Assembly (NCBI GenBank): GCA_035299425.1
Contig: DATGWP010000024.1
Span: 1,120 to 65,119, forward strand
DNA: 64,000 nt
Direction: 5' to 3'
Source: Chitinophagales bacterium
GTDB taxonomy: Bacteria; Bacteroidota; Bacteroidia; Chitinophagales; LD1
In this document: positions 6,001 to 18,029 of the stretch, one piece after another
How positions within the stretch are numbered: the first letter of the stretch is position 1
Layout of the letters: the number at the start of each line of letters is the position of its first letter
Made by a program: the position numbers and the translations under genes
Notes under the pieces: model-generated
The model's database searches: none
Seen by the model: the letters and a program-made list of their open reading frames with translations, nothing else
Told to the model about the DNA's origin: nothing

Positions 6001-7053
6001 GGTTTGAAACGACAGACTTGGCTCGGTGTAGTAACCGCTATAGTTACTGCTCCAGGCACCTGAGCCACCGGCCGCGTCACCGGCCGCCCATACATACACA
6101 TTCCATGTGTTATTCCCTGGGGTAAGTGCCGGCTGTGTACGGTTAAAAGTTATTTGCCCGTTTGAGCCGCCACCGCCTTCCGAAACACGAAACTCAACTA
6201 CATCCGATGCATTTAAGAAACCCGTCCACACCGCAGTGTGTGGGTCGCAACAGCCAATGTGTTGCCATACGTTAGTGCCATTGATGAATAGCTGAGCTGC
6301 ATCATCGTGCCCGTTAATATCTATACTGTAATAGCCACATATACCGGTTCTTATGGCTCTCCAAGAGTGATTATCGTTACCAATATAACATCCTTTGTAA
6401 TCGTTAGCATCGTAAGGTGTGTTTACCCAACGGTTACCAGTGGAAAAAGATAAGGAAGGCTCGGTGTAGTAGCCGCTGTAATTACTACTCCAGGCACCGC
6501 TGCCGCCAGCCGCGTCCCCTGCCGCATAGCAGTAAACGTTCCATGTGCCATTACCCGCAGTTCCCTGGGCAGGTGAGGCAGGTGGAGAACACCGATAAGT
6601 AAGTATAGCCGAGCCCGATCCATAACCCTGGCAGCTATATCGATTATTCTGCACCCTGTATTCCCCGTCATAGTTCGCGGTCCAGTCAATAATAGATTGT
6701 AAACCGCAGGCATCATCATTATAGGGTCCTACGTATCCACCGCCAGAGTTAAATCCACTTAACTGGGTATCGTACGAACTACCACAGGTTTCATAATGAT
6801 AATTAGCTGTATTTTTAACCTGGAAACGTAAAAAAGCACCAGAGCCAATATTTACTGTTTGGTTATTTACTGTAGGATAATAGGTGTTACCATTTTCTTG
6901 CGCGTTGGCCCAACCGCAGACCTGAGCAGTAACGATCGCTAAGCCATAGAATAAAAGAAAACAGGTAAAAACTATTCGACGGATTAATGAATAATAATAG
7001 TTACTGTTTTGGATATTTTCTGTTTTAATAAAGAGCGAGGTAGAAGTAAACAT
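1..7053 (-). CDS. Giant secreted adhesin-like protein, 3'-truncated by the window edge (>2351 aa): signal-like N-terminus, about 4 PA14-like modules, then about 11 tandem Ig-like repeats
   Basis: Absent from the ORF track because it has no stop inside the window. Hand translation of the minus strand from the ATG at 7053..7051 gives MFTSTSLFIKTENIQNSNYYYSLIRRIVFTCFLLFYGLAIVTAQ... The frame is in phase at 4860 (..HDDDVYVYVNGVQQFVHNGCCDVHNGIWTGVLSTSDNVEYRFFEGGGGS..) and at 1638 (TYTFTVTLQSSGCTSGASGNAVIPAQ..). An in-frame stop would have produced a listed ORF starting at 7053, and none is listed. The HDD..VNG...EGGGGS modules recur near 3880, 4650, 5710 and 6170. Confidence 0.85.
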   Translation of the reverse strand, partial: MFTSTSLFIKTENIQNSNYYYSLIRRIVFTCFLLFYGLAIVTAQVCGWANAQENGNTYYPTVNNQTVNIGSGAFLRFQVKNTANYHYETCGSSYDTQLSGFNSGGGYVGPYNDDACGLQSIIDWTANYDGEYRVQNNRYSCQGYGSGSAILTYRCSPPASPAQGTAGNGTWNVYCYAAGDAAGGSGAWSSNYSGYYTEPSLSFSTGNRWVNTPYDANDYKGCYIGNDNHSWRAIRTGICGYYSIDINGHDDAAQLFINGTNVWQHIGCCDPHTAVWTGFLNASDVVEFRVSEGGGGSNGQITFNRTQPALTPGNNTWNVYVWAAGDAAGGSGAWSSNYSGYYTEPSLSFQTYSRWPDGGTPSSASGYIGCAVAADNHSWNASRTNFPCKSYQILVNHDDRGQVFVNGTLRYDVSACCFAPVPTANQNAGTYVLGASDIVEFRVSEGGGGSFGSIAVNDVTTALNGGTITYGGSTTACTGYDPPAFGNSADASGGTSAAITNGSTTYQWELNSVAISGATGATYDPGALTAGTYTYRRRVVDKCSNVAYSNTFTITVNGNTATAGAISPSSASINLGQSVTINSTTNATAASGTTLNIRWYRINSCTGSAWEDLGQTNSQTLPSNTPSAAGTWTYLRRSWSSCGAENVPASYDATTTVTVTSTAGNPATFGSNTWNVYAYCGNNLTLSNNIYQGYYVDNTLSFNTANVWVNGGNGSPSSLISGYTYTGGIVSADYHTVVYKRQGFPCKVYRLDIPTHDDDVYVYVNGVQQFVHNGCCDVHNGIWTGVLSTSDNVEYRFFEGGGGSQGALNVVDVTTALSGGTIGYAGSTSVCGPYDPPVLSNSAAASGGTSAANTNGTTDYQWELNNVSIPGATAATYDPGNITVAGTYNYRRKATDKCGTVAYSNTITIIVYTVPTSPTDGTAGNNEWNVFAYNSATPGTNYVGYYTHTSVDFNTDTRWSAQTAAISATTINATGGAAYTGCTTGVDNFSYRYKRQGFPCGIYTISYRHDDNLTISKNGGAAFYNAGCCINTITSSAGTTGIFLGPNTTLDVVSVEGGGAAFTQLQFVKTGDLTITSSNAAMCNNSAARALTANVAGGTWSGPGVSGSNFNPATAGAGTHTITYSLEGCSVTQQIVVNQTAAPTVGAVTPPTCTVATGSVALSNLPASSWTITASPSNLTLTGSTTTATFSGLPANTTQTFTVTLGSTGCTSAASAGAVIPAQPVTTSPPTVGTITPPTCTVATGSVALSNLPASNWTVTASPGGATITGNTTTATFSGLAQNTSYTFTVTLQSSGCTSVASSSAAIPAQPATPGAPSIVSITQPTCGTATGVINLGNLPASGTWTLTRNPGGVNTTGTGTTTSVSGLPSGTYTFTVTNSVNCVSAVSANAVVNSQPTTSPAPTIGTITPPTCSVATGSVALSNLPASNWTVTATPGGATITGNTTTATFSGLTQNTTYTFITTLQSSGCVSAASANAVIPAQPVTPAVPTVGTITPPTCTVATGSVALSNLPTSSWTVTAAPSGQLITGSTATATFSGLPANSTQTFTVTLQSSGCTSAPSSGAVIPAQPAIPAAPTVGTITNPTCALATGSVALSGLPTSNWTVTANPGGATITGNTATATFSGLAAGTTFNFIVTLQSSGCNSGATSNAVIPAQPVTPPAPTVGAITPPTCSVATGSVALSNLPASNWTVTASPGGATITGSTTTATFSGLTQNTTYTFTTALQSSGCTSAASANAVIPAQPITPAAPNVGTITPPTCTVATGSVALSNLPASNWTVTASPGGATITGNTTTATFAGLTASTTYTFTVTLQSSGCTSGASGNAVIPAQPVTPSAPVVGTITPPTCSVSTGSVNLSGLPNAAWTVTAQPGGFSITGSATSAVFTGLPAATTYTFTVTLTSSGCTSVASGNAVMPAQPITPPAPVAGTITGPTCALATASVALSNLPASSWTVTVSPGGATVTGSTTTTTVSNLTAGITYTFTVTLASSGCTSAPSNPASIPTQPVTPPAPVVSTITQPGCVTTTGSVGLTNLPAAAWTVTAAPGGTTITGNTTSATFSGLPASNTYTFTVTLSSSGCTSAASGNAVIAPAPSAPAAPLASVTAQPTCAVASGTISVSSPLGVNYEYALDGGTYQSSPTFSGVATGNHTVTVRLTVSPDCISPASGTLSINYVPTPLTTTPVSVCQGGTGYLTASNVCVDNFVVPAIPNRIYGGWLSSNSTASTPVGAVNNAVCSFSGPARTYSVIQFQVSATGNYIFEMNNNTTYNGAGYIFTGNFTPGACSGGTLLRIDNDGGSGDEPMLGTVGSPVSLNAGTTYTLVSTTDGASNVINNDYTWTVTPPAGENILLNQ
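790..3650 (-). repeat. About 11 diverged tandem coding repeats, period 258-264 bp (86-88 aa Ig-like unit: QPTC.VATGSV.LSNLPASNWTVTASPGGATITGNTTTATFSGL..NTTYTFTVT..SSGC.S.AS)
   Basis: Unit boundaries (TYTFTV) recur near 853, 1110, 1375, 1636, 1897, 2155, 2415, 2680, 2938, 3199 and 3460. The plus-strand ORFs 854-3685 in the track are antisense shadows with the same periodicity. Confidence 0.8.
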
Positions 7054-7766: not shown

Positions 7767-8405
7767 CTATTTATTAGGCTGCGGTGTTAAGCGCAGGTAC
7801 GGCTTTACCCGCGTATGGCCTTTAGGGAATTTAGCCGGTATATCTTCATCCTTTACTGCCGGTGCAATTACCACATCTTCTCCATCTTTCCAATTAGCAG
7901 GTGTAGCTACCGAGTAGTTAGCCGTTAGCTGCAGGCTATCAATTACGCGCAGCAATTCATGAAAATTTCTACCGGTTGATGCCGGGTAAGTGATTATGAG
8001 TTTCACTTTCTTGTCAGGCCCTATAATAAACACCGACCTAACAGTAAATGTCTCGTTAGAGTTAGGGTGTATCATATCATACAGGTCGGCAACCTTGCGC
8101 TCAGGGTCGGCTATGATAGGAAAGTTAAGCACGGTGTTTTGTGTTTCGTTTATATCCTTTACCCACTCCTTATGCTTATCCAATTCATCTACACTTACGG
8201 CAATTATCTTAGCGTTGCGCTTATCAAACTCAGCCTTTAGTTTTGATGCCGTTCCAAGTTCGGTAGTACATACCGGTGTAAAATCGGCAGGGTGAGAGAA
8301 AAGAACACCCCAGCCATTGCCAAGCCATTCGTAAAAGTTAATAGTTCCATCTGTAGTTTCTGCAGTAAAATCGGGGGCGATGTCTCCAAGTCGTAAAGTA
8401 GCCAT
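7767..8405 (-). CDS. 1-Cys peroxiredoxin (Prx6-type)
   Basis: 212 aa. N-terminus LGDIAPDFTAETTDG..., peroxidatic motif FTPVCTTE. Length and C-terminal extension are typical of the 1-Cys Prx subfamily. Starts 37 nt after the cysH stop. Confidence 0.9.
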   Translation of the reverse strand: MATLRLGDIAPDFTAETTDGTINFYEWLGNGWGVLFSHPADFTPVCTTELGTASKLKAEFDKRNAKIIAVSVDELDKHKEWVKDINETQNTVLNFPIIADPERKVADLYDMIHPNSNETFTVRSVFIIGPDKKVKLIITYPASTGRNFHELLRVIDSLQLTANYSVATPANWKDGEDVVIAPAVKDEDIPAKFPKGHTRVKPYLRLTPQPNK

Positions 8406-8442: not shown

Positions 8443-9183
8443 TTAAATAGTCCAGTTGCCGGGTTGCGAGGCCTCGTTTGTATGTATGCCGCATTCCTTC
8501 TCGGTGTTGCCCTCCCACCACCAACGGCCAGAACGTTCGTTATCGCCGGTTCTTACCGCCCGTGTGCAGGGTGCGCATCCTATGCTCAAAAAGCCTTTGT
8601 CTGATAGTTCATTGTATGGAATACTCTCGCTTCGTATCATATCCTTTACTTCCTCTGCAGTCCAGTAAAAAAGAGGATAAACTTTTATCAATCCCCGCTT
8701 CTCATCCCACTCTACCTGACTCTTCTCTGCCCGGTTAGACGACTGCGTAGCACGCACACCCGATAGCCATATTTTCTGTCCTTGCAAAGCGCGGTTCAGT
8801 GGCTCCAACTTGCGCAGGTAGCAGCACTCCTTACGGTCATCTACCGAATTGTAAAAACTATTGGGCCCTTTTTGCTGTAGCATGTTTTGAAGGCGCTCGG
8901 TTTGCGGGTAATAGGTTTCTATGTTTACGCCATACTTCTCATTGGTAGCTTTCCATACATTATAAGTCTCCTGGAACTGGCGGCCGGTATCGATGGTAAA
9001 TACCTTAACCGGAATTTTGTTTTTAAAAATGAAATGAGATATAACCTGCCCCTCTAAGCCAAAGGCTGTAGAGTAACACACAGCCGCAGGAAACTGCTCA
9101 GCAAGCCAGCGCAGCCCATCGGCTACGGTCATGCTTTGCATGGCCTGGTTAATTTCTTCTACCCGTTTTTTTAACTCACTCAT
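8443..9183 (-). CDS. cysH: Assimilatory (P)APS reductase, thioredoxin-dependent (CysH), Fe-S-type cysteine pattern
   Basis: 246 aa. PAPS-reductase fold motifs and C-terminal KECGIH. The cysteine pairs KECCYLRK and GCAPCT are typical of the [4Fe-4S] APS-reductase subgroup. Confidence 0.9.
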   Translation of the reverse strand: MSELKKRVEEINQAMQSMTVADGLRWLAEQFPAAVCYSTAFGLEGQVISHFIFKNKIPVKVFTIDTGRQFQETYNVWKATNEKYGVNIETYYPQTERLQNMLQQKGPNSFYNSVDDRKECCYLRKLEPLNRALQGQKIWLSGVRATQSSNRAEKSQVEWDEKRGLIKVYPLFYWTAEEVKDMIRSESIPYNELSDKGFLSIGCAPCTRAVRTGDNERSGRWWWEGNTEKECGIHTNEASQPGNWTI

Positions 9184-9201
9184 TTTACAATATCATTAAA
9201 A

Positions 9202-9236
9202 CAAAAAAGGCCTCCCCGAAACCGGAAAGACCTTTT
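9202..9236 (-). terminator. Attenuator terminator in the cysH 5' leader
   Basis: Minus strand reads AAGGUCUUUCC-GGUUUC-GGGGAGGCCUU followed by UUUUUGUUUU. The stem is 11 bp including 3 G.U pairs. It ends 18 nt before the cysH ATG and lies inside a 5' leader, not at a gene end. Confidence 0.6.
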
Positions 9237-9256
9237 TGCTATTAGTTTATATATGG

Positions 9257-9343
9257 TTATGCAAAAGCCTCTCCTGTCGCTATTTTCATAGCGCAACACA
9301 TAGTGCAGCAACAAGAGAATTTTATTTGGCTTTGGTTAAACAT
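9257..9343 (-). CDS. Candidate cysteine-rich leader peptide (28 aa) of cysH: MFNQSQIKFSCCCTMCCAMKIATGEAFA
   Basis: Hand-translated and below the ORF-track size cutoff. ATG at 9343..9341, TAA at 9259..9257. There are 5 Cys codons within 7 codons (9313-9293). It sits between a promoter-like motif and the leader terminator. Confidence 0.6.
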   Translation of the reverse strand: MFNQSQIKFSCCCTMCCAMKIATGEAFA

Positions 9344-9358
9344 TAATTTGCTTTGTAT

Positions 9359-9370
9359 TGCAAGTATAAA
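9359..9370 (-). promoter_or_regulatory. Shared 12-nt motif TTTATACTTGCA (copy 1), 15 nt upstream of the cysH leader ORF; contains a near -7 box TATACTTG
   Basis: Identical 12-mer to 9998-10009 (+). Each copy immediately precedes one of the two Cys-rich mini-ORFs. Confidence 0.35.
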
Positions 9371-9380
9371 CTAATAAATA

Positions 9381-9992
9381 GTGAATAACCAAAACATTCC
9401 TTCTAAAAATTTTCTGTTCCCTGTTTTTCTGAGGCTTGAACAGATGCGTGTATTATTAGTAGGGGCCGGCCCCGTGGGGCTTGAAAAAGCCACCGCCATA
9501 CTTAGCAATTGCCCTAACATACAACTACACATAATAGCGGAAGTAGTAAGCCCTGAAGTAAGGGCGCTGCCGGGCAATTTCAGCGGTGTAACCATTACCG
9601 AGCGAAGGTTTAACGATGATGATTTAATTGGCATACAGGTGCTTTTTCTGGCTATAAACAATAAGGAATTGAGCGGTGTTATATATACAAAGGCCCATCA
9701 GCTAAACATACTGGTAAATGTGGCCGACACACCCGATTTTTGCGATTTCTACATGTCGTCAATAGTGCAAAAGGGGCAGCTTAAACTGGCTATCTCTACC
9801 AATGGCCAATCGCCCACTATGGCCAAACGCCTGAAAGAAGTATTGAACGATGCCCTGCCTGACGAACTGGACGACCTGATAGCCAACTTAAACCAGGTGC
9901 GTAACGGCCTGAAAGGAGATTTTGCGGATAAGGTAAAGCAGCTAAACGAGCTGACCAGCTCCCTCAAAATAAAAGAGGGTGGCAATAAATAA
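9381..9992 (+). CDS. sirC: Precorrin-2 dehydrogenase / sirohydrochlorin ferrochelatase (siroheme synthase N-terminal-domain type, SirC/Met8-like)
   Basis: 203 aa with a GTG start. LFPVFLRLEQMRVLLVGAGPVGLEKA is the typical Rossmann N-terminus of CysG-N/SirC. Context is with cobA and cysJI. Confidence 0.8.
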   Translation: MNNQNIPSKNFLFPVFLRLEQMRVLLVGAGPVGLEKATAILSNCPNIQLHIIAEVVSPEVRALPGNFSGVTITERRFNDDDLIGIQVLFLAINNKELSGVIYTKAHQLNILVNVADTPDFCDFYMSSIVQKGQLKLAISTNGQSPTMAKRLKEVLNDALPDELDDLIANLNQVRNGLKGDFADKVKQLNELTSSLKIKEGGNK

Positions 9993-9997
9993 AGTTT

Positions 9998-10009
9998 TTT
10001 ATACTTGCA
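9998..10009 (+). promoter_or_regulatory. Shared 12-nt motif TTTATACTTGCA (copy 2), 7 nt upstream of the second Cys-rich mini-ORF
   Basis: 12/12 identity with the minus-strand copy at 9370..9359. Confidence 0.35.
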
Positions 10010-10016
10010 GTGTTCA

Positions 10017-10088
10017 ATGAAAAATACCACTCATATCCTTTTTTCTATGCACAACATTTGTTGTTGCGTGGCTTGCTGTTGTTGTTAA
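10017..10088 (+). CDS. Candidate cysteine-rich leader peptide (23 aa) preceding cobA-cysJ-cysI: MKNTTHILFSMHNICCCVACCCC
   Basis: Hand-translated. ATG at 10017, TAA at 10086-10088. 7 of the last 9 codons are Cys. It lies in the 198-bp gap between sirC and cobA. The Cys codons form the 5' arm of a hairpin (10072-10081 with 10091-10101). Confidence 0.5.
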   Translation: MKNTTHILFSMHNICCCVACCCC

Positions 10089-10190
10089 TTCAACAGGCAA
10101 GTCTGAGTATTCCATAAAAAAATATTGTTCGGATTTGTTTGCACTAAGCAGAAAGTGGGGTGATGTTATAGTATTATTAAACCGGTAAAA

Positions 10191-10973
10191 ATGAGCAAGA
10201 CAAAAGGTAAAGTTTTCCTGGTAGGCGCCGGCCCCGGCGACCCGGGACTATTCACCCTAAAAGGTGCGGCTGTATTAGCTACTGCCAATGTAGTGCTGCA
10301 CGACCGGCTGGTTAGCCCCGAAATACTAAAACATGCACCGACTACCGCTGAGATACTACTGACCGGCAAACAAGGCTTTGCAAAATCTACTGCCCAAACC
10401 TATATTGATGAGTTATTGGTAAAGTATGCACTGCAAGGCAAAACAGTGGTAAGGCTTAAAGGTGGTGATGTATCCTTCTTCTCCAATATACTCAACGAAC
10501 TGGAAGCACTGGCCGCAAACGAAATAGAGTTTGAAATTATACCTGGCGTTACTTCTGCATCGGGCTGTGCAGCCTACACAGGCATACCGCTTACGGCAAG
10601 AGGATATAGCGATGAGGTTCATTTCCTTTCGCTATACAATGTAGAAGAGGATACTACCAAGCTGGATAGAATAGCTACCATGCAAGGCACTATTGTATTG
10701 TATATGTCAAGCAACAACCTGGCAGAAACCACGCAGCAACTAAAGCATATTGGAATGCCCGATAGAAAGCTGGTGGTGATAGAGCAAGGCACTACGCCCT
10801 TTCAGCAACAGTATTTTACATCGGTGCATAAGGCCGCTGTAGATTTGGCAGGTAAGAAGATAAATTCTCCGGCACTGGTAATTATTGGCGAGGTGGTAAG
10901 CCTGTCCGAAAAATTTAATTGGTATAAAGGCAGCCACAACGGGCACTATTTTAAAGAACTAACTAAGGGATAA
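10191..10973 (+). CDS. cobA: Uroporphyrinogen-III C-methyltransferase (SUMT)
   Basis: 260 aa. KVFLVGAGPGDPGLFTLKGAAVLATANVVLHDRLV and GGDVSFF motifs of the tetrapyrrole methylase family. Confidence 0.9.
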   Translation: MSKTKGKVFLVGAGPGDPGLFTLKGAAVLATANVVLHDRLVSPEILKHAPTTAEILLTGKQGFAKSTAQTYIDELLVKYALQGKTVVRLKGGDVSFFSNILNELEALAANEIEFEIIPGVTSASGCAAYTGIPLTARGYSDEVHFLSLYNVEEDTTKLDRIATMQGTIVLYMSSNNLAETTQQLKHIGMPDRKLVVIEQGTTPFQQQYFTSVHKAAVDLAGKKINSPALVIIGEVVSLSEKFNWYKGSHNGHYFKELTKG

Positions 10974-10974
10974 T

Positions 10975-12669
10975 ATGCTAAGCGAAGAGCAACTACAAAA
11001 GCTTACAGATTTTATTGGTCAATACAGCCGCGAAGAACAGCTATGGATAAGCGGCTATATATCCGGCTTAAATAATGGAGCAGGTAGCGCACCTGCAGGT
11101 GCTGCATTGATAACAGCTAAGGTTACTATTGCTTATGGCACCGAAACCGGAAACTCTAAAAAGATAGCATCGCAACTGGCAGCACGCGCCAAACAGCGTA
11201 AGATAAATGCCAAGGTTGTTAGCCTGGACCAATACAAAACCACAGAGCTTGAAAAGGAAGAATACTTCTTTACCATAGTAAGTACACACGGCGATGGCGA
11301 ACCACCTGCTGCAGCCAAAAAGTTTTACGACTATCTGCACAGCAGCGAAAAAAGCCTACCCAAACTAAAATACAGTGTGCTTGCCCTGGGCGATACAGCT
11401 TATCCTCTCTTCTGCAAAACCGGTGAAGATGTGGATGCACAATTTGAAAAACTGGGGGCGCGCAAAATTGCCGACCGACGGAATTGTGATGTGGATTATG
11501 AAGCAGAGGCCAATGCCTGGATAGATGATATACTCACTAATCTATTAGCTGTACCGGGTGGTAACGCTGCCGAAAAAGCTGTAGAAAAGAAAAAGCCATC
11601 GGGCCGTGTTATTTACAAGGGTAAAATAACCACCAACATAAACCTGAACGATACAGGCTCGAATAAGGAAACTTACCATATAGAAATTTTGCCGGATGGC
11701 ACGGCCCACTATGCACCGGGCGATTCGATAGGTATAATACCGGTAAATTTAGAAAGCGAAGTACAGCAGGTTTTAAAAACCCTGGGCACCATAGGCAGCG
11801 AGTTTGTAACGTATAAAGACAAACGATTCTCCTTTTACCACTTACTAAAAACCACGCTGAATATAAAGCAAATGCCGCAGCGTGTGCTAAACAAATACGC
11901 CGCGCTGGAAGAAATTACCACTGAGATAAAAGGGCCTCTTGATTTTGCCGATTTGCTTAATGCCTTTCCTGCTAAAAAGCTGCAAGGCAATTGGCAGGCA
12001 CTAACCGATTTGCTGGAGCCTATTTCGCCGCGCTTGTATTCGGTAGCAAGCAGCAATGCAGCGCACAATGAAGAAGTGCATATTACAGTTGCCCGCTCTA
12101 CGTTCAAGAAAGACGGTGTAAAGCAATATGGCCTGGCCTCTAACTATTTATCGCAGTTGCCGATAGGCACCGATATTCAGTTTTATGTGCAGAAGAACAA
12201 CGCTTTCCACCTGCCTGCGGATGACAAGGATATTATAATGGTAGGTCCGGGTACAGGTATTGCCCCTTTCCGTGCTTTTGTGGCCGAGCGCGATGCGCGG
12301 GGCGCCGAAGGGCGCAATTGGTTGTTTTTTGGTGACCAGCATTTTAAAACGGATTTCCTGTATCAAACCGAATGGCAAAATTACCTGGAAACAGGCGTGC
12401 TAAATCGTATGGATGTAGCATTTTCGCGCGATACCGAAAACAAGGTGTATGTTCAGCATAAGTTGCAGCAACATGCAGCGGCTGTTTTTGAATGGTTGCA
12501 GGGCGGCGCTTATTTTTATGTATGCGGCGCCAAAGAACCAATGAGTGTGGATGTGGAAGAAACACTGCTGCAGATAATTGACCAGCAAAGTGGAAATGGG
12601 CGAGAATATGCCGAAGAGTATATCAACACACTGAAAGAGGAAGGGAGATATTTAAAAGATGTATATTAA
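10975..12669 (+). CDS. cysJ: Sulfite reductase (NADPH) flavoprotein alpha subunit
   Basis: 564 aa. Flavodoxin-like domain (ITIAYGTETGNSKKIA) followed by an FAD/NADPH ferredoxin-reductase domain (RLYSVASS, GPGTGIAPFRAF, C-terminal YLKDVY). ATG lies 1 nt after the cobA stop. Confidence 0.9.
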   Translation: MLSEEQLQKLTDFIGQYSREEQLWISGYISGLNNGAGSAPAGAALITAKVTIAYGTETGNSKKIASQLAARAKQRKINAKVVSLDQYKTTELEKEEYFFTIVSTHGDGEPPAAAKKFYDYLHSSEKSLPKLKYSVLALGDTAYPLFCKTGEDVDAQFEKLGARKIADRRNCDVDYEAEANAWIDDILTNLLAVPGGNAAEKAVEKKKPSGRVIYKGKITTNINLNDTGSNKETYHIEILPDGTAHYAPGDSIGIIPVNLESEVQQVLKTLGTIGSEFVTYKDKRFSFYHLLKTTLNIKQMPQRVLNKYAALEEITTEIKGPLDFADLLNAFPAKKLQGNWQALTDLLEPISPRLYSVASSNAAHNEEVHITVARSTFKKDGVKQYGLASNYLSQLPIGTDIQFYVQKNNAFHLPADDKDIIMVGPGTGIAPFRAFVAERDARGAEGRNWLFFGDQHFKTDFLYQTEWQNYLETGVLNRMDVAFSRDTENKVYVQHKLQQHAAAVFEWLQGGAYFYVCGAKEPMSVDVEETLLQIIDQQSGNGREYAEEYINTLKEEGRYLKDVY

Positions 12670-12693
12670 TCTGCAGTAAGAAACTTTATAGCA

Positions 12694-14367
12694 ATGGCAA
12701 AAAAGGAAAAACTATCGCCGGTAGAAAAATTTAAGGAAGAAAGCGATGCCCTTCGCGGCACGCTGGCACAGAGCCTTAAAAATGAACTAACCGGTGCAGT
12801 GGCAGAGGCTGATAAAAGCCTGATAAAATTCCACGGTATATACGAGCAGGATAACCGCGACCGGCGCGAAGAACGTGCTGCCAAAAAACTGGAGCGCGAT
12901 TACTCGTTCATGATTCGCCTGCGCTTGCCCGGTGGACTAATGACAAGCGAACAATGGATAGCTACTGATGACATAGCTGAGAAATACTCTACCGGTGTTA
13001 TTAAAATAACCACCCGACAAACCTTGCAACTACATGGTATTGTAAAAACGGATATGAAGCCGACCCTGCAGTGGTTCGACAAGTTTAACCTGGATAGTAT
13101 TGCTGCCTGTGGCGATGTAAACCGCAACGTGGTTTGCAGCGCACACCCAATGCAATCGGAAATACATCAGCAGGTGTTTGAGTATGCCGATAAGATAAGT
13201 ACCCTGCTATTGCCTAAAACCCGCGCCTACTACGAGGTATGGTTGGATGACGAAAAAATAATTGATAAGAAAGAAGAGGAAGATCCATTGTATGGTAAGA
13301 CCTATTTACCGCGTAAGTTTAAAATAGCCATTGCCATACCGCCCAACAACGATGTGGATTTATATGCCAACGATATTGGACTGATAGCCGTGATAGAAAA
13401 TAACGTATTGAAAGGCTTCAACATAGCCGTAGGTGGTGGCATGAGCGCCACGCATGGCAACGTATCTACTTATCCGCGCGTGGCTAGTGTAATCGGCTTT
13501 GCCGATACAGAAGAGAAAGTGCTGAAAGCGGTTTATGAAATTGTAACGATACAGCGCGATTATGGTAACCGTAGTGATAGAAAACTGGCCCGGTTAAAAT
13601 ATACGATTGACAACGAAGGCCTTGATTGGTTTGTACAGGAACTGGAAAAACGATGCGGTTTTGCATTAGAGCCTACCAAACAATTTGATTTTAACCAGCG
13701 CATAGATTACTATGGCTGGCAAAAAAACCATGAAGGCAAATGGTATTACACCCTGTTTGTAGAGAATGGCCGTGTGTGCAATGAAAATGGCGTGGACATG
13801 CGCAAAGCACTTTATGAAATAGCGCAGACAGCCAAAGTAACGTTCCGCTTTACCTGCAACCAAAACCTGATAGTAGGCGATATATCGCAAAAAGATAAAG
13901 CTGCTATCAACAAATTGCTGGCTAAGTATAATCTGATTGAACATACCGAAGCCCGCACCGGTATTCGTAAAAACTCGATGGCCTGCGTAGCCATGCCTAC
14001 CTGCCCATTAGCATTGGCAGAGGCTCAGCGATATTTACCCGAGCTAATATCTAAGATTGAACCACTGCTGGCTGAAAACCAACTGACAAACGATGATATT
14101 ATCATTCGTATGACCGGCTGCCCCAATGGCTGTGCCAGGCCTTACCTGGCAGAGATTGCACTGGTAGGTGTTTCGCCGGGAAGGTATAACCTGCACATTG
14201 GTGGCGATGTATCGGGCGCAAGGCTAAACATCATCTTCCGCGAAAACCAGAACGAAGAAGAAATTTTATATGCCCTTGGCGCTTTGTTTAAAACATACGC
14301 GGAGAAAAGAAATAAGAACGAGGCCTTTGGCGATTTTGTGATACGAGAAAAGTATGTTACCGCTTAA
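12694..14367 (+). CDS. cysI: Sulfite reductase hemoprotein beta subunit (siroheme/[4Fe-4S])
   Basis: 557 aa. FHGIYEQDNRDRREERAAKKLE..RLRLPGG..TTRQTLQLHG at the N-terminus. Cluster cysteines in MACVAMPTCPLA and TGCPNGCARP. Confidence 0.92.
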   Translation: MAKKEKLSPVEKFKEESDALRGTLAQSLKNELTGAVAEADKSLIKFHGIYEQDNRDRREERAAKKLERDYSFMIRLRLPGGLMTSEQWIATDDIAEKYSTGVIKITTRQTLQLHGIVKTDMKPTLQWFDKFNLDSIAACGDVNRNVVCSAHPMQSEIHQQVFEYADKISTLLLPKTRAYYEVWLDDEKIIDKKEEEDPLYGKTYLPRKFKIAIAIPPNNDVDLYANDIGLIAVIENNVLKGFNIAVGGGMSATHGNVSTYPRVASVIGFADTEEKVLKAVYEIVTIQRDYGNRSDRKLARLKYTIDNEGLDWFVQELEKRCGFALEPTKQFDFNQRIDYYGWQKNHEGKWYYTLFVENGRVCNENGVDMRKALYEIAQTAKVTFRFTCNQNLIVGDISQKDKAAINKLLAKYNLIEHTEARTGIRKNSMACVAMPTCPLALAEAQRYLPELISKIEPLLAENQLTNDDIIIRMTGCPNGCARPYLAEIALVGVSPGRYNLHIGGDVSGARLNIIFRENQNEEEILYALGALFKTYAEKRNKNEAFGDFVIREKYVTA

Positions 14368-14369
14368 AA

Positions 14370-15575
14370 ATGAATGCACATTACCGGCAAACCATTTCTG
14401 ACAAACTCGATACCCTTAAACAACAGGGTAACTATCGCTATTTTCAGGATGTAAATAAGTCGGCAAAGCATTTCCCCCGTTTTTATTTTGACGATGAAAC
14501 CGGTAAAAAGAAAAGCGCCGTAAATTGGTGCAGTAACGATTACCTGTGCATGAGTATTCACGAAGATGTTATAAGCAAGTTATCGTTTACAGCCCACCAC
14601 AGCGGCGTGGGCAGCAGCGGCACCCGCAATATATCGGGCACTACCGGCTACCATAAGCAACTGGAAGAAAGCGTAGCTAACCTGCATGGCAAAGAAGCCG
14701 CTATTATTTTCAATAGTGCTTTTCTGGCAAACCTTTCAACCCTTGCCACCCTGGGCAGGGCTTTTAGTGATGCGGTATTTATTTCAGACGAGCGCAACCA
14801 TGCATCTATAATTGAAGGCATACGTAGCAGTGGATGTAAAAAAATTGTATTCAAGCATAATGACGTGCAGCACCTGGAAGAGGTGCTTTCTGCTTTGCCA
14901 GCTGAGCAATCAAAAATCATTGTATTTGAAAGTGTTTACTCTATAAGCGGCAACGTGGCACCGGTACAGGAAATAACAGCGTTAGCAAAAAAATACAATG
15001 CCCTAACTTACATAGATGAAGTACATGCCGTGGGCCTTTACGGTGCTACCGGCGCGGGTATTGCAGGACAGCAAGGACTGCAAAATGAAGTGGATATCAT
15101 CAACGGCACATTTGCCAAAGCATTTGGCACATTAGGTGGTTATATTACTACCGATGCCATGATGGCCGATTACCTGCGCAGCTTTGCCAGCGGGTTTATT
15201 TTCACTACTTCTCTCCCACCTGCTATTTGCAGCGCTACTATCAAAAGCATTGAGCTGGTAAAACAGAATAATGAATGGCGGGAACAATTTCACGGGGCGG
15301 TAAAAAAGTTGCGGGCATTATTGGCCGATAAGCAAATCCCATTTCATACCAACGCCTCGCATGTAACGGCGGTTCATATTGGAGATAACATAAGCTGCAA
15401 AGCGATAGCCGATAGGTTATTGAACGAGTTTGGCATTTACCTGCAGCCTATCAATCCGCCCACTGTAAAAGAAGGAGAGGCCTGTTTGCGGATTACGGTT
15501 ACAGCCAAACATACAGAAAGCGATATGCAACAAATGGTAAATGCACTTTCAATTGTGATGCATGAAACAGTTTAA
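14370..15575 (+). CDS. hemA: 5-aminolevulinate synthase (Shemin/C4 pathway; alpha-oxoamine synthase family)
   Basis: 401 aa. NYRYFQDVNKSAKHFP...VNWCSNDYLCM matches the ALAS signature WCSNDYLGM, as opposed to BioF or Kbl. PLP-lysine context GTFAKAFGTLGGYI. Flanked by hemC and hemB. Confidence 0.75.
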   Translation: MNAHYRQTISDKLDTLKQQGNYRYFQDVNKSAKHFPRFYFDDETGKKKSAVNWCSNDYLCMSIHEDVISKLSFTAHHSGVGSSGTRNISGTTGYHKQLEESVANLHGKEAAIIFNSAFLANLSTLATLGRAFSDAVFISDERNHASIIEGIRSSGCKKIVFKHNDVQHLEEVLSALPAEQSKIIVFESVYSISGNVAPVQEITALAKKYNALTYIDEVHAVGLYGATGAGIAGQQGLQNEVDIINGTFAKAFGTLGGYITTDAMMADYLRSFASGFIFTTSLPPAICSATIKSIELVKQNNEWREQFHGAVKKLRALLADKQIPFHTNASHVTAVHIGDNISCKAIADRLLNEFGIYLQPINPPTVKEGEACLRITVTAKHTESDMQQMVNALSIVMHETV

Positions 15576-17070
15576 AATTGTTTGCCGCAGTTCGTCCCTA
15601 TCTGTTATACAGGCAGAAATTGCACGCCAGTACATTTTAAAAGCAGCACCGGGTACAGAAATAGAAATCGTATTAAAAGAAACCAGCGGCGACCTTGACC
15701 AGAGCCGTCCATTATATGAGTTAGAAGGCCGCGACTTCTTCTCTAAGGAAATTGATGAATACCTATTAACCGGTAAAGCTGATTTTGCAGTTCATTCAAT
15801 GAAAGACCTGAGCGGTAACCGCCTGGACGATGAGCGTTTTGTAAATGCTGTGCCTGAACGAAACGACCCGCGTGATGTTATAATTTTCAATCCGGATGTA
15901 TTAGATAAGATTGCATCGGGCAAACCGCTGGTGATAGGAACTTCTTCTTTACGCAGACAATTGCAGGCTATCAACTTTCTTAAAAAGGCATTGCCGGTGG
16001 TCAATGGTTTATCTGCCTCTACAGAAACCAAAACCATACGCGGCAATGTAGATTCGCGTTTGCAGCAATTGCAGGATGGGAAATTTGACGGTATTATACT
16101 TGCTGCAGCCGGCTTAAACCGATTGCTTACTGGTGGCAATAGCAACGTGGCTTCACTTTTAAGCGGCAAACGGAAAATGTTTCTACCCCTTATTGAATGT
16201 GCGCCGGCTCCGGGGCAGGGTGCTTTATTAATAGAGTGCCTGAAAACGAATAGCTCAGCTGCTGAAATTCTTGCCGGTGTAAATAATACAGCCCTATCTG
16301 CGCAATTGGAAACAGAGAGAAATTCAGTAACCCATTTAGGCGGCGGGTGCCACCAGCAGTATGGGTCTGTCTATATCGATACGCCTCATGGTGGGTTTGT
16401 AAATGTAGCAGGCATAGACGAAAAAGGGAATGATGTTAGCGATATGATATTTGATGTATCGTTGGATATCTCTGGTAAAAAAATGTTCTCTGCCGGCGAC
16501 CATATGAAGGATTTTTTCAGTTACGAATTTCAGAGTGCAGACCTATCCGGATTATCCGATGTTGTTTTCGTAGCACATCACCGCGCTGTTACACCTGCAA
16601 TAGCCGAACAGTTAAAGGATAAACAAGTATGGTGCTCGGGTAGCCGCAGTTGGTATGAGTTGGCCAAGCTGGGTATTTGGTGCCAGGGATGTGCCGATGG
16701 GTTAGGCTTTCATTTCTTATCGAATACGTTCGCTCAGCCATTAACTTCTATAAATAAAGAAACGATAACAATTTTAACCAATACCCAGGCTGCCGAAGAA
16801 TGGGCTAAAGAAAATGTGGTTGCTGTCGGCACTTATAAACTGATTCCGAATTTATCGAAAGAACTATGCGATGGCATAAGTGGCGCCGACATTATCTACT
16901 GGACCAATTTTGAGCAATATCTTGCGGCTAAGCATTTGCTAAAGGCCGGCGTTACACATGCTTGTCCATCGGGCAAAACTGTTGAATTGTTTTTAAAGAA
17001 TAACATTGAGCCGGTGGTGTTTCCCGGTATTAAGGCATTTAATATATGGAGAAAGAAAAACACTATATGA
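15562..17070 (+). CDS. hemC: Porphobilinogen deaminase (HemC) with about 190-aa C-terminal extension, possibly a uroporphyrinogen-III synthase (HemD)-like domain
   Basis: 502 aa. HemC motifs (GTSSLRRQLQ, RGNVDSRLQQLQDGKFDGIILAAAGLNRL, GGGCHQQYG) occupy the first ~300 aa. Assigning the remainder to HemD rests only on pathway logic and weak resemblance. Overlaps the ALAS gene by 14 nt. Confidence 0.8.
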   Translation: MKQFKIVCRSSSLSVIQAEIARQYILKAAPGTEIEIVLKETSGDLDQSRPLYELEGRDFFSKEIDEYLLTGKADFAVHSMKDLSGNRLDDERFVNAVPERNDPRDVIIFNPDVLDKIASGKPLVIGTSSLRRQLQAINFLKKALPVVNGLSASTETKTIRGNVDSRLQQLQDGKFDGIILAAAGLNRLLTGGNSNVASLLSGKRKMFLPLIECAPAPGQGALLIECLKTNSSAAEILAGVNNTALSAQLETERNSVTHLGGGCHQQYGSVYIDTPHGGFVNVAGIDEKGNDVSDMIFDVSLDISGKKMFSAGDHMKDFFSYEFQSADLSGLSDVVFVAHHRAVTPAIAEQLKDKQVWCSGSRSWYELAKLGIWCQGCADGLGFHFLSNTFAQPLTSINKETITILTNTQAAEEWAKENVVAVGTYKLIPNLSKELCDGISGADIIYWTNFEQYLAAKHLLKAGVTHACPSGKTVELFLKNNIEPVVFPGIKAFNIWRKKNTI

Positions 17071-18029
17071 ACCAGCGCAGGCTAAGGGCCAATGAACATA
17101 TACGTGAGTTAGCAGCACAGGTATATGTATCACATAAAGATTTTATACAGCCCGTATTTGTTGACGAAGCGTTAACCGAGCGACAATCGGCAAAACACCT
17201 TACCGGTGTGTACACCGAAACCATCGAATCGGTGCTGCAGCAAACTGAAAAGGATATTGCCGGGGGAGTAACTAAATTCCTGCTATTCCCTGTGCCCGCT
17301 CGAAAATCGGAAAATGGATTTTCATTTGATTTTGCTGCGGAGGTTACAAACCGCTTAAAACAAACTTTTGGCAATTCTATCTGGCTGGCAAACGATGTTT
17401 GCCTGTGCAGCTATACCACGCACGGACATTGCGGTATTTTGAGTAAAGAAGGTGACAGGCTTTTAAACGATGATACAGTAATAGTGCTGGCAGATTATGT
17501 TTTGCAATTAGCCCAGGCCGGCAGCAATTGCATAGCCCCCAGCGATATGAGCGACGGCCGCATTAGCGCTATAAGAGAAGCTTTAGATACTAATGGATAC
17601 GACGTCACCGCTATTATGAGTTACGCCGCTAAGTTTAGCTCATCGTTCTACGGACCATTCCGCGATGTATGTAAATCTGCACCGGGCAAAAGCCAGTTGA
17701 ACAACCGGGCTACTTACCAGTTAGATTATAGAAACCATAAAGATGCTTTAGCGACAGCATTACGCGATGCAGAAGAAGGCGCCGATATACTTATGGTAAA
17801 ACCGGCATTGCCTTATCTCGATATTGTTCAAACAATAAATAAGGCGATACCAAAACCGATAGCAGTTTACCACGTAAGTGGGGAATATGCAGCACTGGAG
17901 TTTCTGGCCCAACAACAGTTAGGAGAACGCGCTGCCTTGCACAAAGAAGTATGGACAGCTTTTAAACGAGCCGGCGCATCTGTAATAATATCTTATGCAT
18001 CGAGAGAGGCAAAAGAGTGGCTTCAATAA
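17067..18029 (+). CDS. hemB: Porphobilinogen synthase (delta-aminolevulinate dehydratase), Zn-type
   Basis: MNQRRLRANEHIRELAAQ...FIQPVFVDE. Cys-rich metal site DVCLCSYTTHGHCG. Active-site context SYAAKFSSSFYGPFRD. I place the start at the ATG at 17067, which overlaps the hemC stop as ATGA. The track start at 17046 is an alternative. Confidence 0.9.
   Translation: MNQRRLRANEHIRELAAQVYVSHKDFIQPVFVDEALTERQSAKHLTGVYTETIESVLQQTEKDIAGGVTKFLLFPVPARKSENGFSFDFAAEVTNRLKQTFGNSIWLANDVCLCSYTTHGHCGILSKEGDRLLNDDTVIVLADYVLQLAQAGSNCIAPSDMSDGRISAIREALDTNGYDVTAIMSYAAKFSSSFYGPFRDVCKSAPGKSQLNNRATYQLDYRNHKDALATALRDAEEGADILMVKPALPYLDIVQTINKAIPKPIAVYHVSGEYAALEFLAQQQLGERAALHKEVWTAFKRAGASVIISYASREAKEWLQ

What the first reader, a model, noticed from the sequence alone, without database searches (positions are those of the whole stretch)
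10017..10190. Second, even denser Cys-codon mini-ORF between sirC and cobA-cysJ-cysI, without an obvious terminator
**What the sequence shows.** The 198-bp gap after sirC contains the ORF ATG(10017)...TAA(10088), encoding MKNTTHILFSMHNICCCVACCCC. Seven of its last nine codons are Cys. It shares the ..FS..CCC..CC layout with the cysH leader peptide.

The second Cys run forms the 5' arm of a hairpin: CUUGCUGUUG (10072-10081) pairs with CAACAGGCAAG (10091-10101), giving 10 bp with a 1-nt bulge. A translating or stalled ribosome would melt this hairpin.

**What I could not find.** There is no GC-rich hairpin followed by a U-run between 10089 and 10190. The output mechanism is therefore unclear. 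Candidates are a non-canonical terminator, Rho-dependent termination, or control of translation or mRNA stability.

**Why it matters.** Two independent Cys-run mini-ORFs flank the same sulfate-assimilation locus, which makes coincidence unlikely. An alternative reading is that these are functional Cys-rich micropeptides, for example metal- or sulfide-binding.
Basis: partly seen in the sequence, partly recalled or inferred. Interest (0 to 1): 0.8.

Follow-up and report, generated by a model that had tools for sequence, protein, structure and literature searches.

The report
Terminator-less cysteine-sensing leader before sulfite reductase genes
A 23-codon mini-gene ending in seven cysteine codons, sitting inside a conserved two-state RNA switch just upstream of the sulfite-reductase/siroheme genes, is very probably a cysteine sensor read by the ribosome, of a kind proven only in mycobacteria and not found reported for this bacterial phylum, and how its signal reaches the genes is still unknown.

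Summary
ATG 10017..TAA 10088 encodes MKNTTHILFSMHNICCCVACCCC, and no shuffle of the window reaches that Cys density.

It is conserved. The same sirC / Cys-run mini-ORF / cobA-cysJ-cysI layout occurs in 6 lineages of one Chitinophagaceae clade. The start codon, the stop codon and both Cys runs are kept while the rest of the peptide drifts.

**New here:**
- The 3' arm of B can instead pair with a U-rich strand (10129-10141) to form helix C-ext.
- B and C-ext share about 10 nt.
- They are nearly equal in energy in the five lineages computed (window -15.5 vs -14.0 kcal/mol).
- Each beats shuffled controls.

No lineage has a canonical terminator at hairpin B or helix C. The cysH leader of the same genomes is a textbook terminator-type attenuator. 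I found no conserved helix linking the switch to the cobA start, and the spacer is C-poor, which argues against a classical Rho site.

**Verdict:** a ribosome-read cysteine attenuator with a B to C-ext switch is well supported. The output step is unresolved. It is a new variant of a known kind, closest to the mycobacterial polycysteine short ORFs. Interest is moderate to high.

The parts
10000..10009 (+). Promoter-like box TATACTTGCA. It resembles the Bacteroidota -7 element TAnnTTTG (my knowledge of the consensus). It lies 7 nt before the leader ATG, or 9 nt counting from the end of the 8-nt TATACTTG core. It implies a very short 5' UTR.
   Evidence: The exact 10-mer occurs only twice in 64 kb, at 10000-10009 (+) and 9359-9368 (-), each just upstream of a Cys leader. 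The TAT(A/C)(C/A)TTG core is kept 9-11 nt before the ATG in all lineages. The transcription start was not measured.
10017..10088 (+). Leader ORF, 23 codons: MKNTTHILFSMHNICCCVACCCC, stop TAA. Cys run 1 is 10059-10067 and Cys run 2 is 10074-10085.
   Evidence: Homologous ORFs of 23-26 codons with two Cys runs occur in L137, L001, L139-L142, L144/L145, L146 and L147.
10045..10071 (+). Hairpin A. An ACAACA-type anti-Cys-codon stretch (10045-10055) pairs with Cys run 1 (10060-10071). It lies inside the ORF, so a translating ribosome melts it.
   Evidence: MFE fold. RNAalifold keeps a core of six pairs: five are invariant and the sixth holds in 4 of 6 sequences. By eye, equivalent hairpins are present in L146 and L147 (sequences).
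10070..10103 (+). Hairpin B (helix 1:2). Cys run 2 (10070-10084) pairs with segment 2 (10091-10103). The leader stop codon sits in the loop.
   Evidence: -15.5 kcal/mol. The duplex is better than shuffles at p<=0.008 in 6 of 8 loci (L144 0.024, L146 0.072).
10094..10141 (+). Helix C-ext (helix 2:3). Segment 2 plus UCUGAGUA (10094-10109) pairs with the U-rich 3' strand (10126-10141, ...UUCGGAUUUGUUUG). It shares about 10 nt (10094-10103) with hairpin B, so the two exclude each other.
   Evidence: RNAalifold picks this helix. -14.0 kcal/mol against -15.5 for B. Better than shuffles at p<=0.006 in 7 of 8 loci. 92.3% of cells are paired against <=58.7% when the partner is slid, and the covariation score was reached by 2 of 500 shuffles.
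10142..10157 (+). Small hairpin D (CACU / AGUG), directly after helix C-ext.
   Evidence: RNAalifold pairs columns 174-177 with 186-189, with G-C and U-G replacements. Equivalents read by eye are ACACUU/AAGUGU (L139), CAUC/GAUG (L144) and ACGC/GCGU (L146). Its function is unknown.
10191..18029 (+). Genes presumed to be controlled: cobA (10191-10973), cysJ (10975-12669), cysI (12694-14367), 5-aminolevulinate synthase (14370-15575), hemC/D-like (15562-17070), hemB (17046-18029).
   Evidence: NCBIfam hits above the curated cut-offs, except cysJ (561 bits against a cut-off of 668). The genes are tightly spaced or overlapping.
9381..9992 (+). sirC (precorrin-2 dehydrogenase / siroheme synthase N-terminal domain). 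It lies upstream of the leader and is not preceded by a Cys leader of its own.
   Evidence: TIGR01470, 113 bits. In L147 the region upstream of sirC has no Cys ORF.
9204..9368 (-). Sister element: the cysH leader. Box at 9368-9359, ORF 9343-9257 (MFNQSQIKFSCCCTMCCAMKIATGEAFA), GC-rich terminator plus U-run at 9237-9204. A classical attenuator.
   Evidence: Terminator scan. Fold z = -4.39. Conserved with a terminator in L001, L139/L141, L144 and L146.

Best explanation
This is a ribosome-read cysteine attenuator for the cobA-cysJ-cysI-(ALA synthase-hemCD-hemB) transcription unit.

**Proposed sequence of events**
1. A promoter-like box directly upstream gives a transcript with a very short 5' UTR.
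2. The 23-codon leader is translated.
3. By default (cysteine replete, or no ribosome on the runs), Cys run 2 pairs with segment 2 to form hairpin B. B is slightly the more stable conformer in each lineage computed.
4. When Cys-tRNA is scarce, the ribosome dwells on the Cys codons. Any stall from the third codon of run 1 to the end of run 2 covers the 5' arm of B.
5. Segment 2 is then freed and zips up with the U-rich strand 10126-10141 into helix C-ext.
6. So the conformer ratio B : C-ext reports cysteine supply.

**Output.** I take C-ext to be the ON state. The output is most likely not intrinsic termination. My best guess is post-transcriptional: in the B state about 38 nt of AU/U-rich RNA (10104-10141) lie exposed. 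This exposed stretch lowers expression of the A-rich, Shine-Dalgarno-less cobA start region or exposes the message to decay. C-ext hides it.

**Status of each step**
- Shown: the ORF, its conservation, helices B and C-ext, their mutual exclusion and near-equal energies, and the lack of a terminator.
- Inferred: that stalling drives B to C-ext, which conformer is ON, and the whole output step.
For: **The ORF and its conservation**
- Its Cys density is beyond chance.
- It is conserved in 6 lineages with drifting non-Cys residues and 23-26 codons.
- It always lies upstream of the sulfite-reductase/siroheme genes.
- Related genomes put Cys-run ORFs before cysH in 31 of 48 loci.

**The switch**
- Local fold energies B / C-ext: window -15.5/-14.0; L001 -15.8/-15.2; L139 -13.8/-13.2; L142 -16.0/-12.4; L144 -9.8/-9.5.
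- Both helices beat shuffles.
- C-ext is 92% paired with G-U/A-U/G-C exchanges and fails when slid.
- RNAalifold independently finds C-ext.

**Ribosome position**
- With the ribosome footprint masked, a stall at the first Cys codon leaves B. Stalls anywhere in run 2 give a full 15-16 bp C-ext.

**No terminator**
- None is found at hairpin B or helix C in any lineage.
- The inner hairpin of C alone is only -1.9 to -7.6 kcal/mol.
- The same genomes build a canonical terminator for the cysH leader.

**Precedent**
- Polycysteine short ORFs in mycobacteria attenuate translation without terminators (bioRxiv 10.1101/834739).
- Many other Chitinophagaceae cysH leaders pair the Cys run directly with ACAACA 5-21 nt before the cysH ATG.
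Against: **The output step has no positive evidence**
- No conserved helix joins the U-rich strand to anything downstream (RNAalifold gave 0 pairs).
- Its best duplex with the cobA start region is no better than with shuffled start regions in 7 of 8 loci.
- In the window it ranks only 15th of 26 against other gene starts.
- Predicted accessibility of the cobA start changes little between the two states.

**Polarity is not secure**
- A ribosome stalled at the first two Cys codons of run 1 leaves B intact.

**Limits of the comparison**
- All homologues come from one clade, so the reading frame is inherited, not independently reinvented.
- Both Cys runs are also RNA-pairing strands, so part of their conservation could be structural.
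- The transcription start, translation of the ORF and the response to cysteine are all untested.
Confidence: 0.55

Rival explanations
1. Same sensor and same switch, but the output is premature transcription termination without a canonical terminator. It would be factor-dependent (Rho, as in tna, mgtA or corA leaders) or act at a weak non-canonical site. The exposed single strand of the B state would be the entry or release site.
For: - Near-isoenergetic alternative helices suit an irreversible co-transcriptional decision.
- Leader ORFs without terminators upstream of actinobacterial cys operons were first proposed to act through Rho (PMC1262725).
- In L001, L146 and L147 the sequence after hairpin B is U-rich (sequences).
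- The few C residues of the spacer that are conserved lie in UC/CC contexts (alignment A5).
Against: - The spacer is C-poor and G exceeds C (9-16% C, C/G 0.46-0.78). That is the opposite of classical rut sites.
- The U-rich tail after B is not conserved (4 of 10 U in the window, L139 and L144).
- No terminator-like site is called at hairpin B or helix C in any lineage. The only sites called are hairpin A in L144 and the D region in L001.
Confidence: 0.25
2. Reverse polarity, mapped like the trp attenuator. Run 1 is the sensor and hairpin B is the antiterminator. Helix C, with its U-rich 3' strand (UUUGUUUG) pre-paired to an upstream complementary tract, is a weak intrinsic terminator. It would form when an unstalled ribosome runs over run 2.
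For: - A ribosome stalled at the first Cys codon leaves B intact.
- B removes the basal pairs of helix C.
- The 3' strand is U-rich in most lineages (A5).
Against: - The inner hairpin is only -1.9 to -7.6 kcal/mol.
- The far end of the supposed U-tract covaries with its partner (C-G, U-A, G-C at columns 34:84).
- In L147 the strand reads GGGUUUGCC. Together these mark it as a helix strand, not a U-tract.
- Stalls on the four codons of run 2 would switch the operon off under starvation.
- The scan finds no terminator here.
Confidence: 0.12
3. The ORF encodes a functional Cys-rich micropeptide (binding metal or sulfide, or redox-active), and the RNA helices are incidental.
For: The Cys-rich C-terminus is conserved.
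Against: - Apart from the Cys runs the peptide is not conserved, for example MKNTTHILFSMHNI against MSLASKFCNFLLNNNK.
- The Cys codons lie in helices that covary with non-coding partners.
- The position immediately upstream of cysteine-pathway genes recurs across the family.
- The sister leader is a textbook attenuator.
Confidence: 0.04
4. A chance ORF in a TG-rich spacer, with no function.
For: None, beyond the low overall fold z-score of the spacer (z = -0.65).
Against: - Cys density is beyond every shuffle.
- Start, frame and stop are conserved in 6 lineages.
- The helices are conserved.
Confidence: 0.02

Closest known systems
Mycobacterial polycysteine leaderless short ORFs (Ms5788A type; Canestrari et al., bioRxiv 10.1101/834739)
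   Same: - A short ORF ending in a run of Cys codons, placed first in a transcript of cysteine-metabolism genes.
- No terminator.
- The Cys codons themselves form one strand of an inhibitory helix that a stalled ribosome opens.
- Several loci in one genome share the device. Here there are two leaders; the authors call the mycobacterial set a 'ribulon'.
- The 5' UTR is probably very short.
   Different: - In mycobacteria the Cys codons pair directly with the Shine-Dalgarno region of the next gene. Here they pair with a segment about 90 nt upstream of cobA, and that segment has a second conserved partner, so there are three strands rather than two.
- Bacteroidota generally do not use Shine-Dalgarno pairing (my knowledge).
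- No pairing to the cobA start region is conserved.
- The phylum is different, and there is no evidence of common descent.
Classical leader-peptide transcription attenuators (trp, his, leu, thr; and the cysH leader of this same window)
   Same: - A leader ORF with a run of cognate codons.
- Mutually exclusive helices 1:2 and 2:3, with strand 1 inside the ORF and the stop codon just before strand 2.
- A cognate biosynthetic operon downstream.
   Different: There is no 3:4 terminator: no GC-rich stem plus U-run in any lineage and no conserved partner for strand 3.
Leader ORFs that select between RNA conformers controlling Rho-dependent termination (tnaC/tna, mgtL/mgtA, corL/corA; from my knowledge)
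   Same: Translation of a short ORF decides between alternative structures, and there is no intrinsic terminator.
   Different: Those systems expose C-rich, G-poor rut sites. This spacer is C-poor. Rho dependence is untested.
uORFC-8-2 motif upstream of cysS in Rhodobacterales (PMC8632094), and the candidate cys leaders of Actinobacteria (PMC1262725)
   Same: Leader ORFs with Cys codons that sense Cys-tRNA. The actinobacterial ones were likewise noted to lack terminators.
   Different: uORFC-8-2 has only two Cys codons, a terminator with a U-run, and controls the tRNA synthetase. The taxa and architecture also differ.

Membership tests
Classical ribosome-mediated transcription attenuator | Short translated leader ORF with clustered codons for the amino acid made by the downstream operon | tested here: met
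   Seven Cys codons among the last nine. The sulfite reductase and siroheme genes lie downstream. The ORF is conserved in 6 lineages. Translation itself was not tested.
Classical ribosome-mediated transcription attenuator | Mutually exclusive alternative helices, one strand of which lies in the ORF | tested here: met
   B (10070-10084 with 10091-10103) and C-ext (10094-10109 with 10126-10141) share about 10 nt.
Classical ribosome-mediated transcription attenuator | An intrinsic terminator (stable stem followed by a U-run) as one of the alternatives | tested here: not met
   No site in 10089-10190, and none at hairpin B or helix C in the five other lineages. The inner hairpin of C is only -1.9 to -7.6 kcal/mol. 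No conserved 3:4 helix.
Mycobacterial-type polycysteine translational attenuator | Polycysteine short ORF as the first cistron of a cysteine-related operon | tested here: met
Mycobacterial-type polycysteine translational attenuator | Leaderless transcript (5' end at the start codon) | tested here: inconclusive
   A conserved promoter-like box ends 9-11 nt before the ATG, which suggests a 5' UTR of a few nt. The start site was not measured.
Mycobacterial-type polycysteine translational attenuator | Cys codons base-pair with the ribosome-binding region of the downstream gene | tested here: not met
   The partner of the Cys run is 10091-10103, 88 nt or more upstream of the cobA ATG. The U-rich 3' strand freed in the B state shows no conserved or above-background pairing with the cobA start region. 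Direct pairing of the Cys run itself with the cobA start was not scored. The feature is met in many other Chitinophagaceae cysH leaders.
Mycobacterial-type polycysteine translational attenuator | Expression of downstream genes rises on cysteine limitation and depends on the Cys codons | not testable with these tools
   Needs reporter fusions or proteomics.
Leader-ORF-controlled Rho-dependent terminator | C-rich, G-poor unstructured rut region exposed in the OFF conformer | tested here: not met
   The spacer is 9-16% C with C/G 0.46-0.78 in all 8 loci.
Leader-ORF-controlled Rho-dependent terminator | Termination abolished by Rho inhibition | not testable with these tools
   Needs bicyclomycin or Rho depletion.
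Any Rfam family | Covariance-model match | tested here: not met
   No hit at gathering thresholds in the window. Only chance-level hits (E >= 0.34) in 9150-10250.

The most novel reading that the evidence does not exclude
The element is a new output class of amino-acid attenuator, specific to Shine-Dalgarno-less Bacteroidota. It would be a three-strand switch driven by ribosome position, with no terminator and no sequestration of a ribosome-binding site. The regulated entity would be exposure of a U-rich single strand. That strand would be read by a factor (an RNase, an unusual Rho or another RNA-binding protein) or by the initiation machinery. Together with the terminator-type cysH leader and the direct-pairing cysH leaders of sister genera, the family would show one sensor wired to three different outputs.
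Probability: 0.3. Interest if true: 0.75.

Novelty: new variant of a known kind. Interest (0 to 1): 0.6.

Why it matters
**Cysteine control in Bacteroidota.** Cysteine control by leader peptides has been proven only in mycobacteria. Searches of the held literature found nothing for Bacteroidota, and Rfam has no model that matches.

**What this locus offers.**
- It suggests that Chitinophagaceae run sulfate assimilation and a dedicated siroheme supply line through Cys-codon leaders.
- One clade of genomes carries two versions side by side: a textbook terminator version at cysH and a terminator-less version at cobA-cysJI.
- That pairing is a natural experiment on how an attenuator works where Shine-Dalgarno pairing is not used.

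**Testability.** The conserved B / C-ext switch gives three short strands that can be mutated and compensated directly.

**Practical use.** The Cys-run ORF is a simple marker for annotating cysteine regulons in this family.

Tried and rejected
1. **Canonical terminator.** The scan of the window spacer and of five homologous spacers found none at hairpin B or helix C. The only hits were incidental: hairpin A followed by the T-rich Cys run in L144, and the D region in L001.
2. **Helix C as a terminator with UUUGUUUG as its U-tract.** Rejected. The inner hairpin is too weak, the supposed tract covaries as a helix strand, and it reads GUUUGCC in L147.
3. **Hairpin B as a terminator.** The tail after it is U-rich in only 3 of 6 lineages, and this model gives the conserved C-ext helix no role.
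4. **The U-rich strand sequestering the cobA start.**
   - The duplex is no better than with shuffled start regions or with other gene starts.
   - RNAalifold finds no conserved pairs from the strand to +30 of cobA.
   - Accessibility differences between the states are small.
5. **Rho entry site.** The composition argues against it.
6. **A second small ORF over UUC GGA UUU GUU ('FGFV').** There is no conserved start codon and the frame differs in L144, so the conservation is at the RNA level (read from the sequences).
7. **Rfam.** Nothing.
8. **Metagenome scan with CobA.** It returned only relatives at <=59% identity (over partial matches) with no Cys mini-ORFs. Close relatives came instead from the protein search plus exact-protein look-ups.
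9. **Covariance model of the switch, searched in 93 held sources.** Only the known members matched, plus one weak hit upstream of cysH in L079.

Full report
**1. The observation**

The window is from a member of the Chitinophagaceae. Its CysI is 84% identical to that of a MAG labelled 'uncultured Chitinophaga sp.' (L001).

The gene order, from NCBIfam hits, is as follows:

| Gene | Coordinates | Strand |
|---|---|---|
| peroxiredoxin | 7767-8405 | - |
| cysH | 8443-9183 | - |
| sirC | 9381-9992 | + |
| cobA | 10191-10973 | + |
| cysJ | 10975-12669 | + |
| cysI | 12694-14367 | + |
| 5-aminolevulinate synthase | 14370-15575 | + |
| hemC/D-like | 15562-17070 | + |
| hemB | 17046-18029 | + |

- The 198-nt sirC-cobA gap holds ATG 10017..TAA 10088, encoding MKNTTHILFSMHNICCCVACCCC.
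- Seven Cys codons in nine is the maximum over all six frames of the window. No shuffle of 200 reached it; their maxima were 4 to 6.
- No GC-rich hairpin plus T-run lies between the ORF and cobA. The same scan does find the cysH leader terminator at 9237-9204.

**2. Conservation**

- A genome-collection scan with CysI gave 80 loci. Most have a different layout: cysH ... cobA-cysJ-cysI-sirC, all on one strand. Only L001 shares the window's split layout.
- A protein search with CobA, followed by exact-protein look-ups, found more members of the split layout: L137, L139-L142, L144/L145, L146 and L147.
- All of them carry a 23-26 codon ORF between sirC and cobA:

| Locus | Leader peptide |
|---|---|
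| L137 | ...CCCMACCCC |
| L001 | MKSQYPHISVSAGNMCCCKACCCC |
| L139 | MQNTSIHISCLCNNKCCCNTCCCCC |
| L144 | MSLASKFCNFLLNNNKCCSNCCCR |
| L146 | MKNGFISIVYQTSNTSKCCCSCCCCD |
| L147 | MKKHTTFLSSSANICCSMVCCIC |

- The CobA proteins of these loci are 57-90% identical to the window's.
- The start, the frame, the two Cys runs and the stop are kept. The rest of the peptide is not.
- Among the other Chitinophagaceae loci, 31 of 48 have a Cys-run mini-ORF directly upstream of cysH.

The ORF is therefore a selected feature tied to cysteine-pathway genes. Its conserved part is the Cys codons, not a peptide fold.

**3. Anatomy**

- **Promoter-like box.**
  - TAT(A/C)(C/A)TTG ends 9-11 nt before the ATG in every lineage.
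  - The exact 10-mer TATACTTGCA occurs only twice in the window, once before each Cys leader.
  - It resembles the Bacteroidota -7 element (my knowledge) and implies a 5' UTR of only a few nucleotides.
  - The start site was not measured.
- **Hairpin A.** An ACAACA stretch pairs with Cys run 1 inside the ORF.
- **Hairpin B.** Cys run 2 pairs with segment 2 (10091-10103). The stop codon sits in the loop.
- **Helix C-ext.** RNAalifold on six homologues did not choose B. It chose a 13-bp helix between 10094-10106 and the U-rich strand 10129-10141, UCGGAUUUGUUUG.
- **Hairpin D.** A small covarying hairpin follows C-ext.

C-ext overlaps B by about 10 nt of segment 2, so the two exclude each other. 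Their local fold energies track each other in each lineage computed:

| Locus | B (kcal/mol) | C-ext (kcal/mol) |
|---|---|---|
| window | -15.5 | -14.0 |
| L001 | -15.8 | -15.2 |
| L139 | -13.8 | -13.2 |
| L142 | -16.0 | -12.4 |
| L144 | -9.8 | -9.5 |

- Each duplex beats shuffled partners: p<=0.008 for B in six of eight loci and p<=0.006 for C-ext in seven of eight.
- On an 8-sequence alignment, C-ext is 92.3% paired. This falls to 18-59% when the 3' strand is slid by 1-3 columns.
- Exchanges include G-U to A-U or G-C, and three different Watson-Crick pairs occur at the outermost position. The covariation score was reached by 2 of 500 shuffles.
- L147 is telling: its strand 3 reads UUCGGGUUUGCC and strand 2 reads GGCAAAUCUGA. 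That is a helix, not a U-tract.

**4. What the switch senses**

I masked a ribosome footprint at successive A-site positions.
- A stall on the first Cys codon leaves B intact.
- A stall anywhere in run 2 frees segment 2 and gives the full 15-16 bp C-ext.
- A ribosome at the stop codon gives a shortened C.

B is slightly more stable than C-ext in each of the five lineages computed. It is therefore the expected default when no ribosome sits on the runs, and C-ext is the state held by a ribosome dwelling on the Cys codons.

This is the 1:2 / 2:3 logic of classical attenuators. That stalling drives the switch is an inference; nothing here measures it.

**5. The output**

Here the evidence stops.

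*Intrinsic termination.*
- No lineage has a canonical terminator at hairpin B or helix C.
- The inner hairpin of C alone is -1.9 to -7.6 kcal/mol.
- The U-rich strand behaves as a helix strand.
- By contrast the cysH leader of the same genomes is a textbook attenuator (z = -4.39). By eye on those folds:
  - its Cys codons lie in strand 1;
  - its strand 2 (ACAGGAGAGGCUUUU) can pair with the 5' arm of a GC-rich terminator followed by a U-run.
- The organism can therefore build a terminator-type attenuator, and at this locus it does not.

*Translational sequestration.* In many other Chitinophagaceae the Cys run pairs directly with ACAACA 5-21 nt before the cysH ATG. That is the mycobacterial design. 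In the window's second leader no such link to cobA is seen:
- RNAalifold finds no conserved pair from strand 3 to +30 of cobA.
- The best duplex with the cobA start region is no better than with shuffled controls in 7 of 8 loci.
- In the window it ranks 15th of 26 among gene starts.
- Predicted accessibility of the start region differs by only about 0.05 on average between the states.

*Rho.* The spacer is C-poor, with G exceeding C.

I therefore commit to the sensor and the switch. For the output I rank three options:
1. A post-transcriptional effect of exposing or hiding the roughly 38-nt AU/U-rich stretch 10104-10141. The effect would fall on translation of a Shine-Dalgarno-less, A-rich start region or on RNA decay.
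2. Factor-dependent or non-canonical termination.
3. Reverse-polarity weak intrinsic termination.

**6. Comparison with known systems**

- **Closest in function:** the polycysteine leaderless short ORFs of mycobacteria. Compensatory mutagenesis showed that ribosomes stalled in the Cys tract open a helix that hides the ribosome-binding site (bioRxiv 10.1101/834739).
- **Earlier comparative work:** leader peptides 'without obvious terminators' upstream of actinobacterial cys operons (PMC1262725).
- **A terminator-type example:** a two-Cys-codon uORF precedes cysS in Rhodobacterales (PMC8632094).
- **The phylum:** leader-peptide attenuation as such is reported or suspected in Bacteroidota (PMC9723704 and PMC7366714). 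I found no report of cysteine leaders there, and Rfam has no matching family.

The present element fails the defining structural feature of both the classical family (a terminator) and the mycobacterial family (Cys codons pairing with the downstream ribosome-binding region). It shares their sensing principle. I therefore file it as a new variant of a known kind.

**7. Caveats**

- All second-leader homologues belong to one clade (6 lineages, 8 distinct sequences), so the covariation statistics are modest.
- Energies are nearest-neighbour predictions.
- The promoter, translation of the ORF, the response to cysteine and the polarity of the switch are all untested.

Noticed in passing
window 9204-9368 (-): The cysH leader (ORF 9343-9257, MFNQSQIKFSCCCTMCCAMKIATGEAFA) is a complete classical attenuator. 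By eye on the fold, the Cys codons lie in strand 1 and strand 2 (ACAGGAGAGGCUUUU) can pair with the 5' arm of a GC-rich terminator plus U-run at 9237-9204. Fold z = -4.39. It is conserved with its terminator in L001, L139/L141, L144 and L146.
   Followed up: partly
L006-L080, 40-85 nt upstream of cysH: 31 of 48 Chitinophagaceae cysH loci carry a mini-ORF ending in CCC or CCCC, for example MVLPAFSFSKRPCCCC. In many, the Cys run is complementary to ACAACA(A/C) 5-21 nt before the cysH ATG, with no terminator. L033, for example, pairs ACGUGUUGUUGU with CCAACAACACGUU at -15.8 kcal/mol. This is the mycobacterial translational design in a phylum that lacks Shine-Dalgarno use.
   Followed up: partly
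window 10000-10009 (+) and 9359-9368 (-): The exact 10-mer TATACTTGCA occurs only twice in 64 kb, each time just upstream of a Cys leader. It could be a shared promoter -7 box, an operator for a common regulator, or a trace of duplication of the leader.
   Followed up: partly
window 14370-18029 (+): A 5-aminolevulinate synthase (TIGR01821, 501 bits), a hemC/D-like fusion and hemB follow cysI directly, with overlapping or abutting ends. They look like a private tetrapyrrole supply line for siroheme under the same control. As far as I know, the one-step (C4) route to 5-aminolevulinate is unusual outside Alphaproteobacteria.
   Followed up: no
L079:470-700: The covariance model of the switch gives one weak extra hit (21 bits, E 0.68) upstream of cysH in a different lineage. 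The leader there is a 35-codon ORF ending ...ACCCFICCSCCI. By eye, it is followed by CAACAAGG...CUUGUU, which could form analogous B and C-ext helices. A GC-rich hairpin (GGGCAG/CUGUCC) lies further downstream. This may be an intermediate architecture.
   Followed up: partly
window 44880-45017 (-): This is the other Cys-dense stretch in the window (6 Cys codons in 9, ...[11 protein letters not shown]...). It lies inside a 439-codon ORF (43907-45226, -) but is bounded by stops after 46 codons, so it must be another frame. It is most likely a by-product of a repetitive coding stretch, not a leader.
   Followed up: partly
window 4300-6950: Long stretches recur at roughly 430-nt and roughly 1.2-kb spacing; for example GGCTCGGTGTAGTA(A/G)CCGCT occurs near 6030 and 6460. 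This suggests a large repetitive surface-protein gene on the minus strand. In L139 the corresponding neighbour carries PKD and Por_Secre_tail domains.
   Followed up: no
window 10110-10115 and homologous positions: The loop of helix C keeps a UUCC(A/U)U motif, just after UCUGA, in 5 of 6 lineages, although the rest of the loop varies from A-rich to U-rich. No partner or function was found.
   Followed up: no
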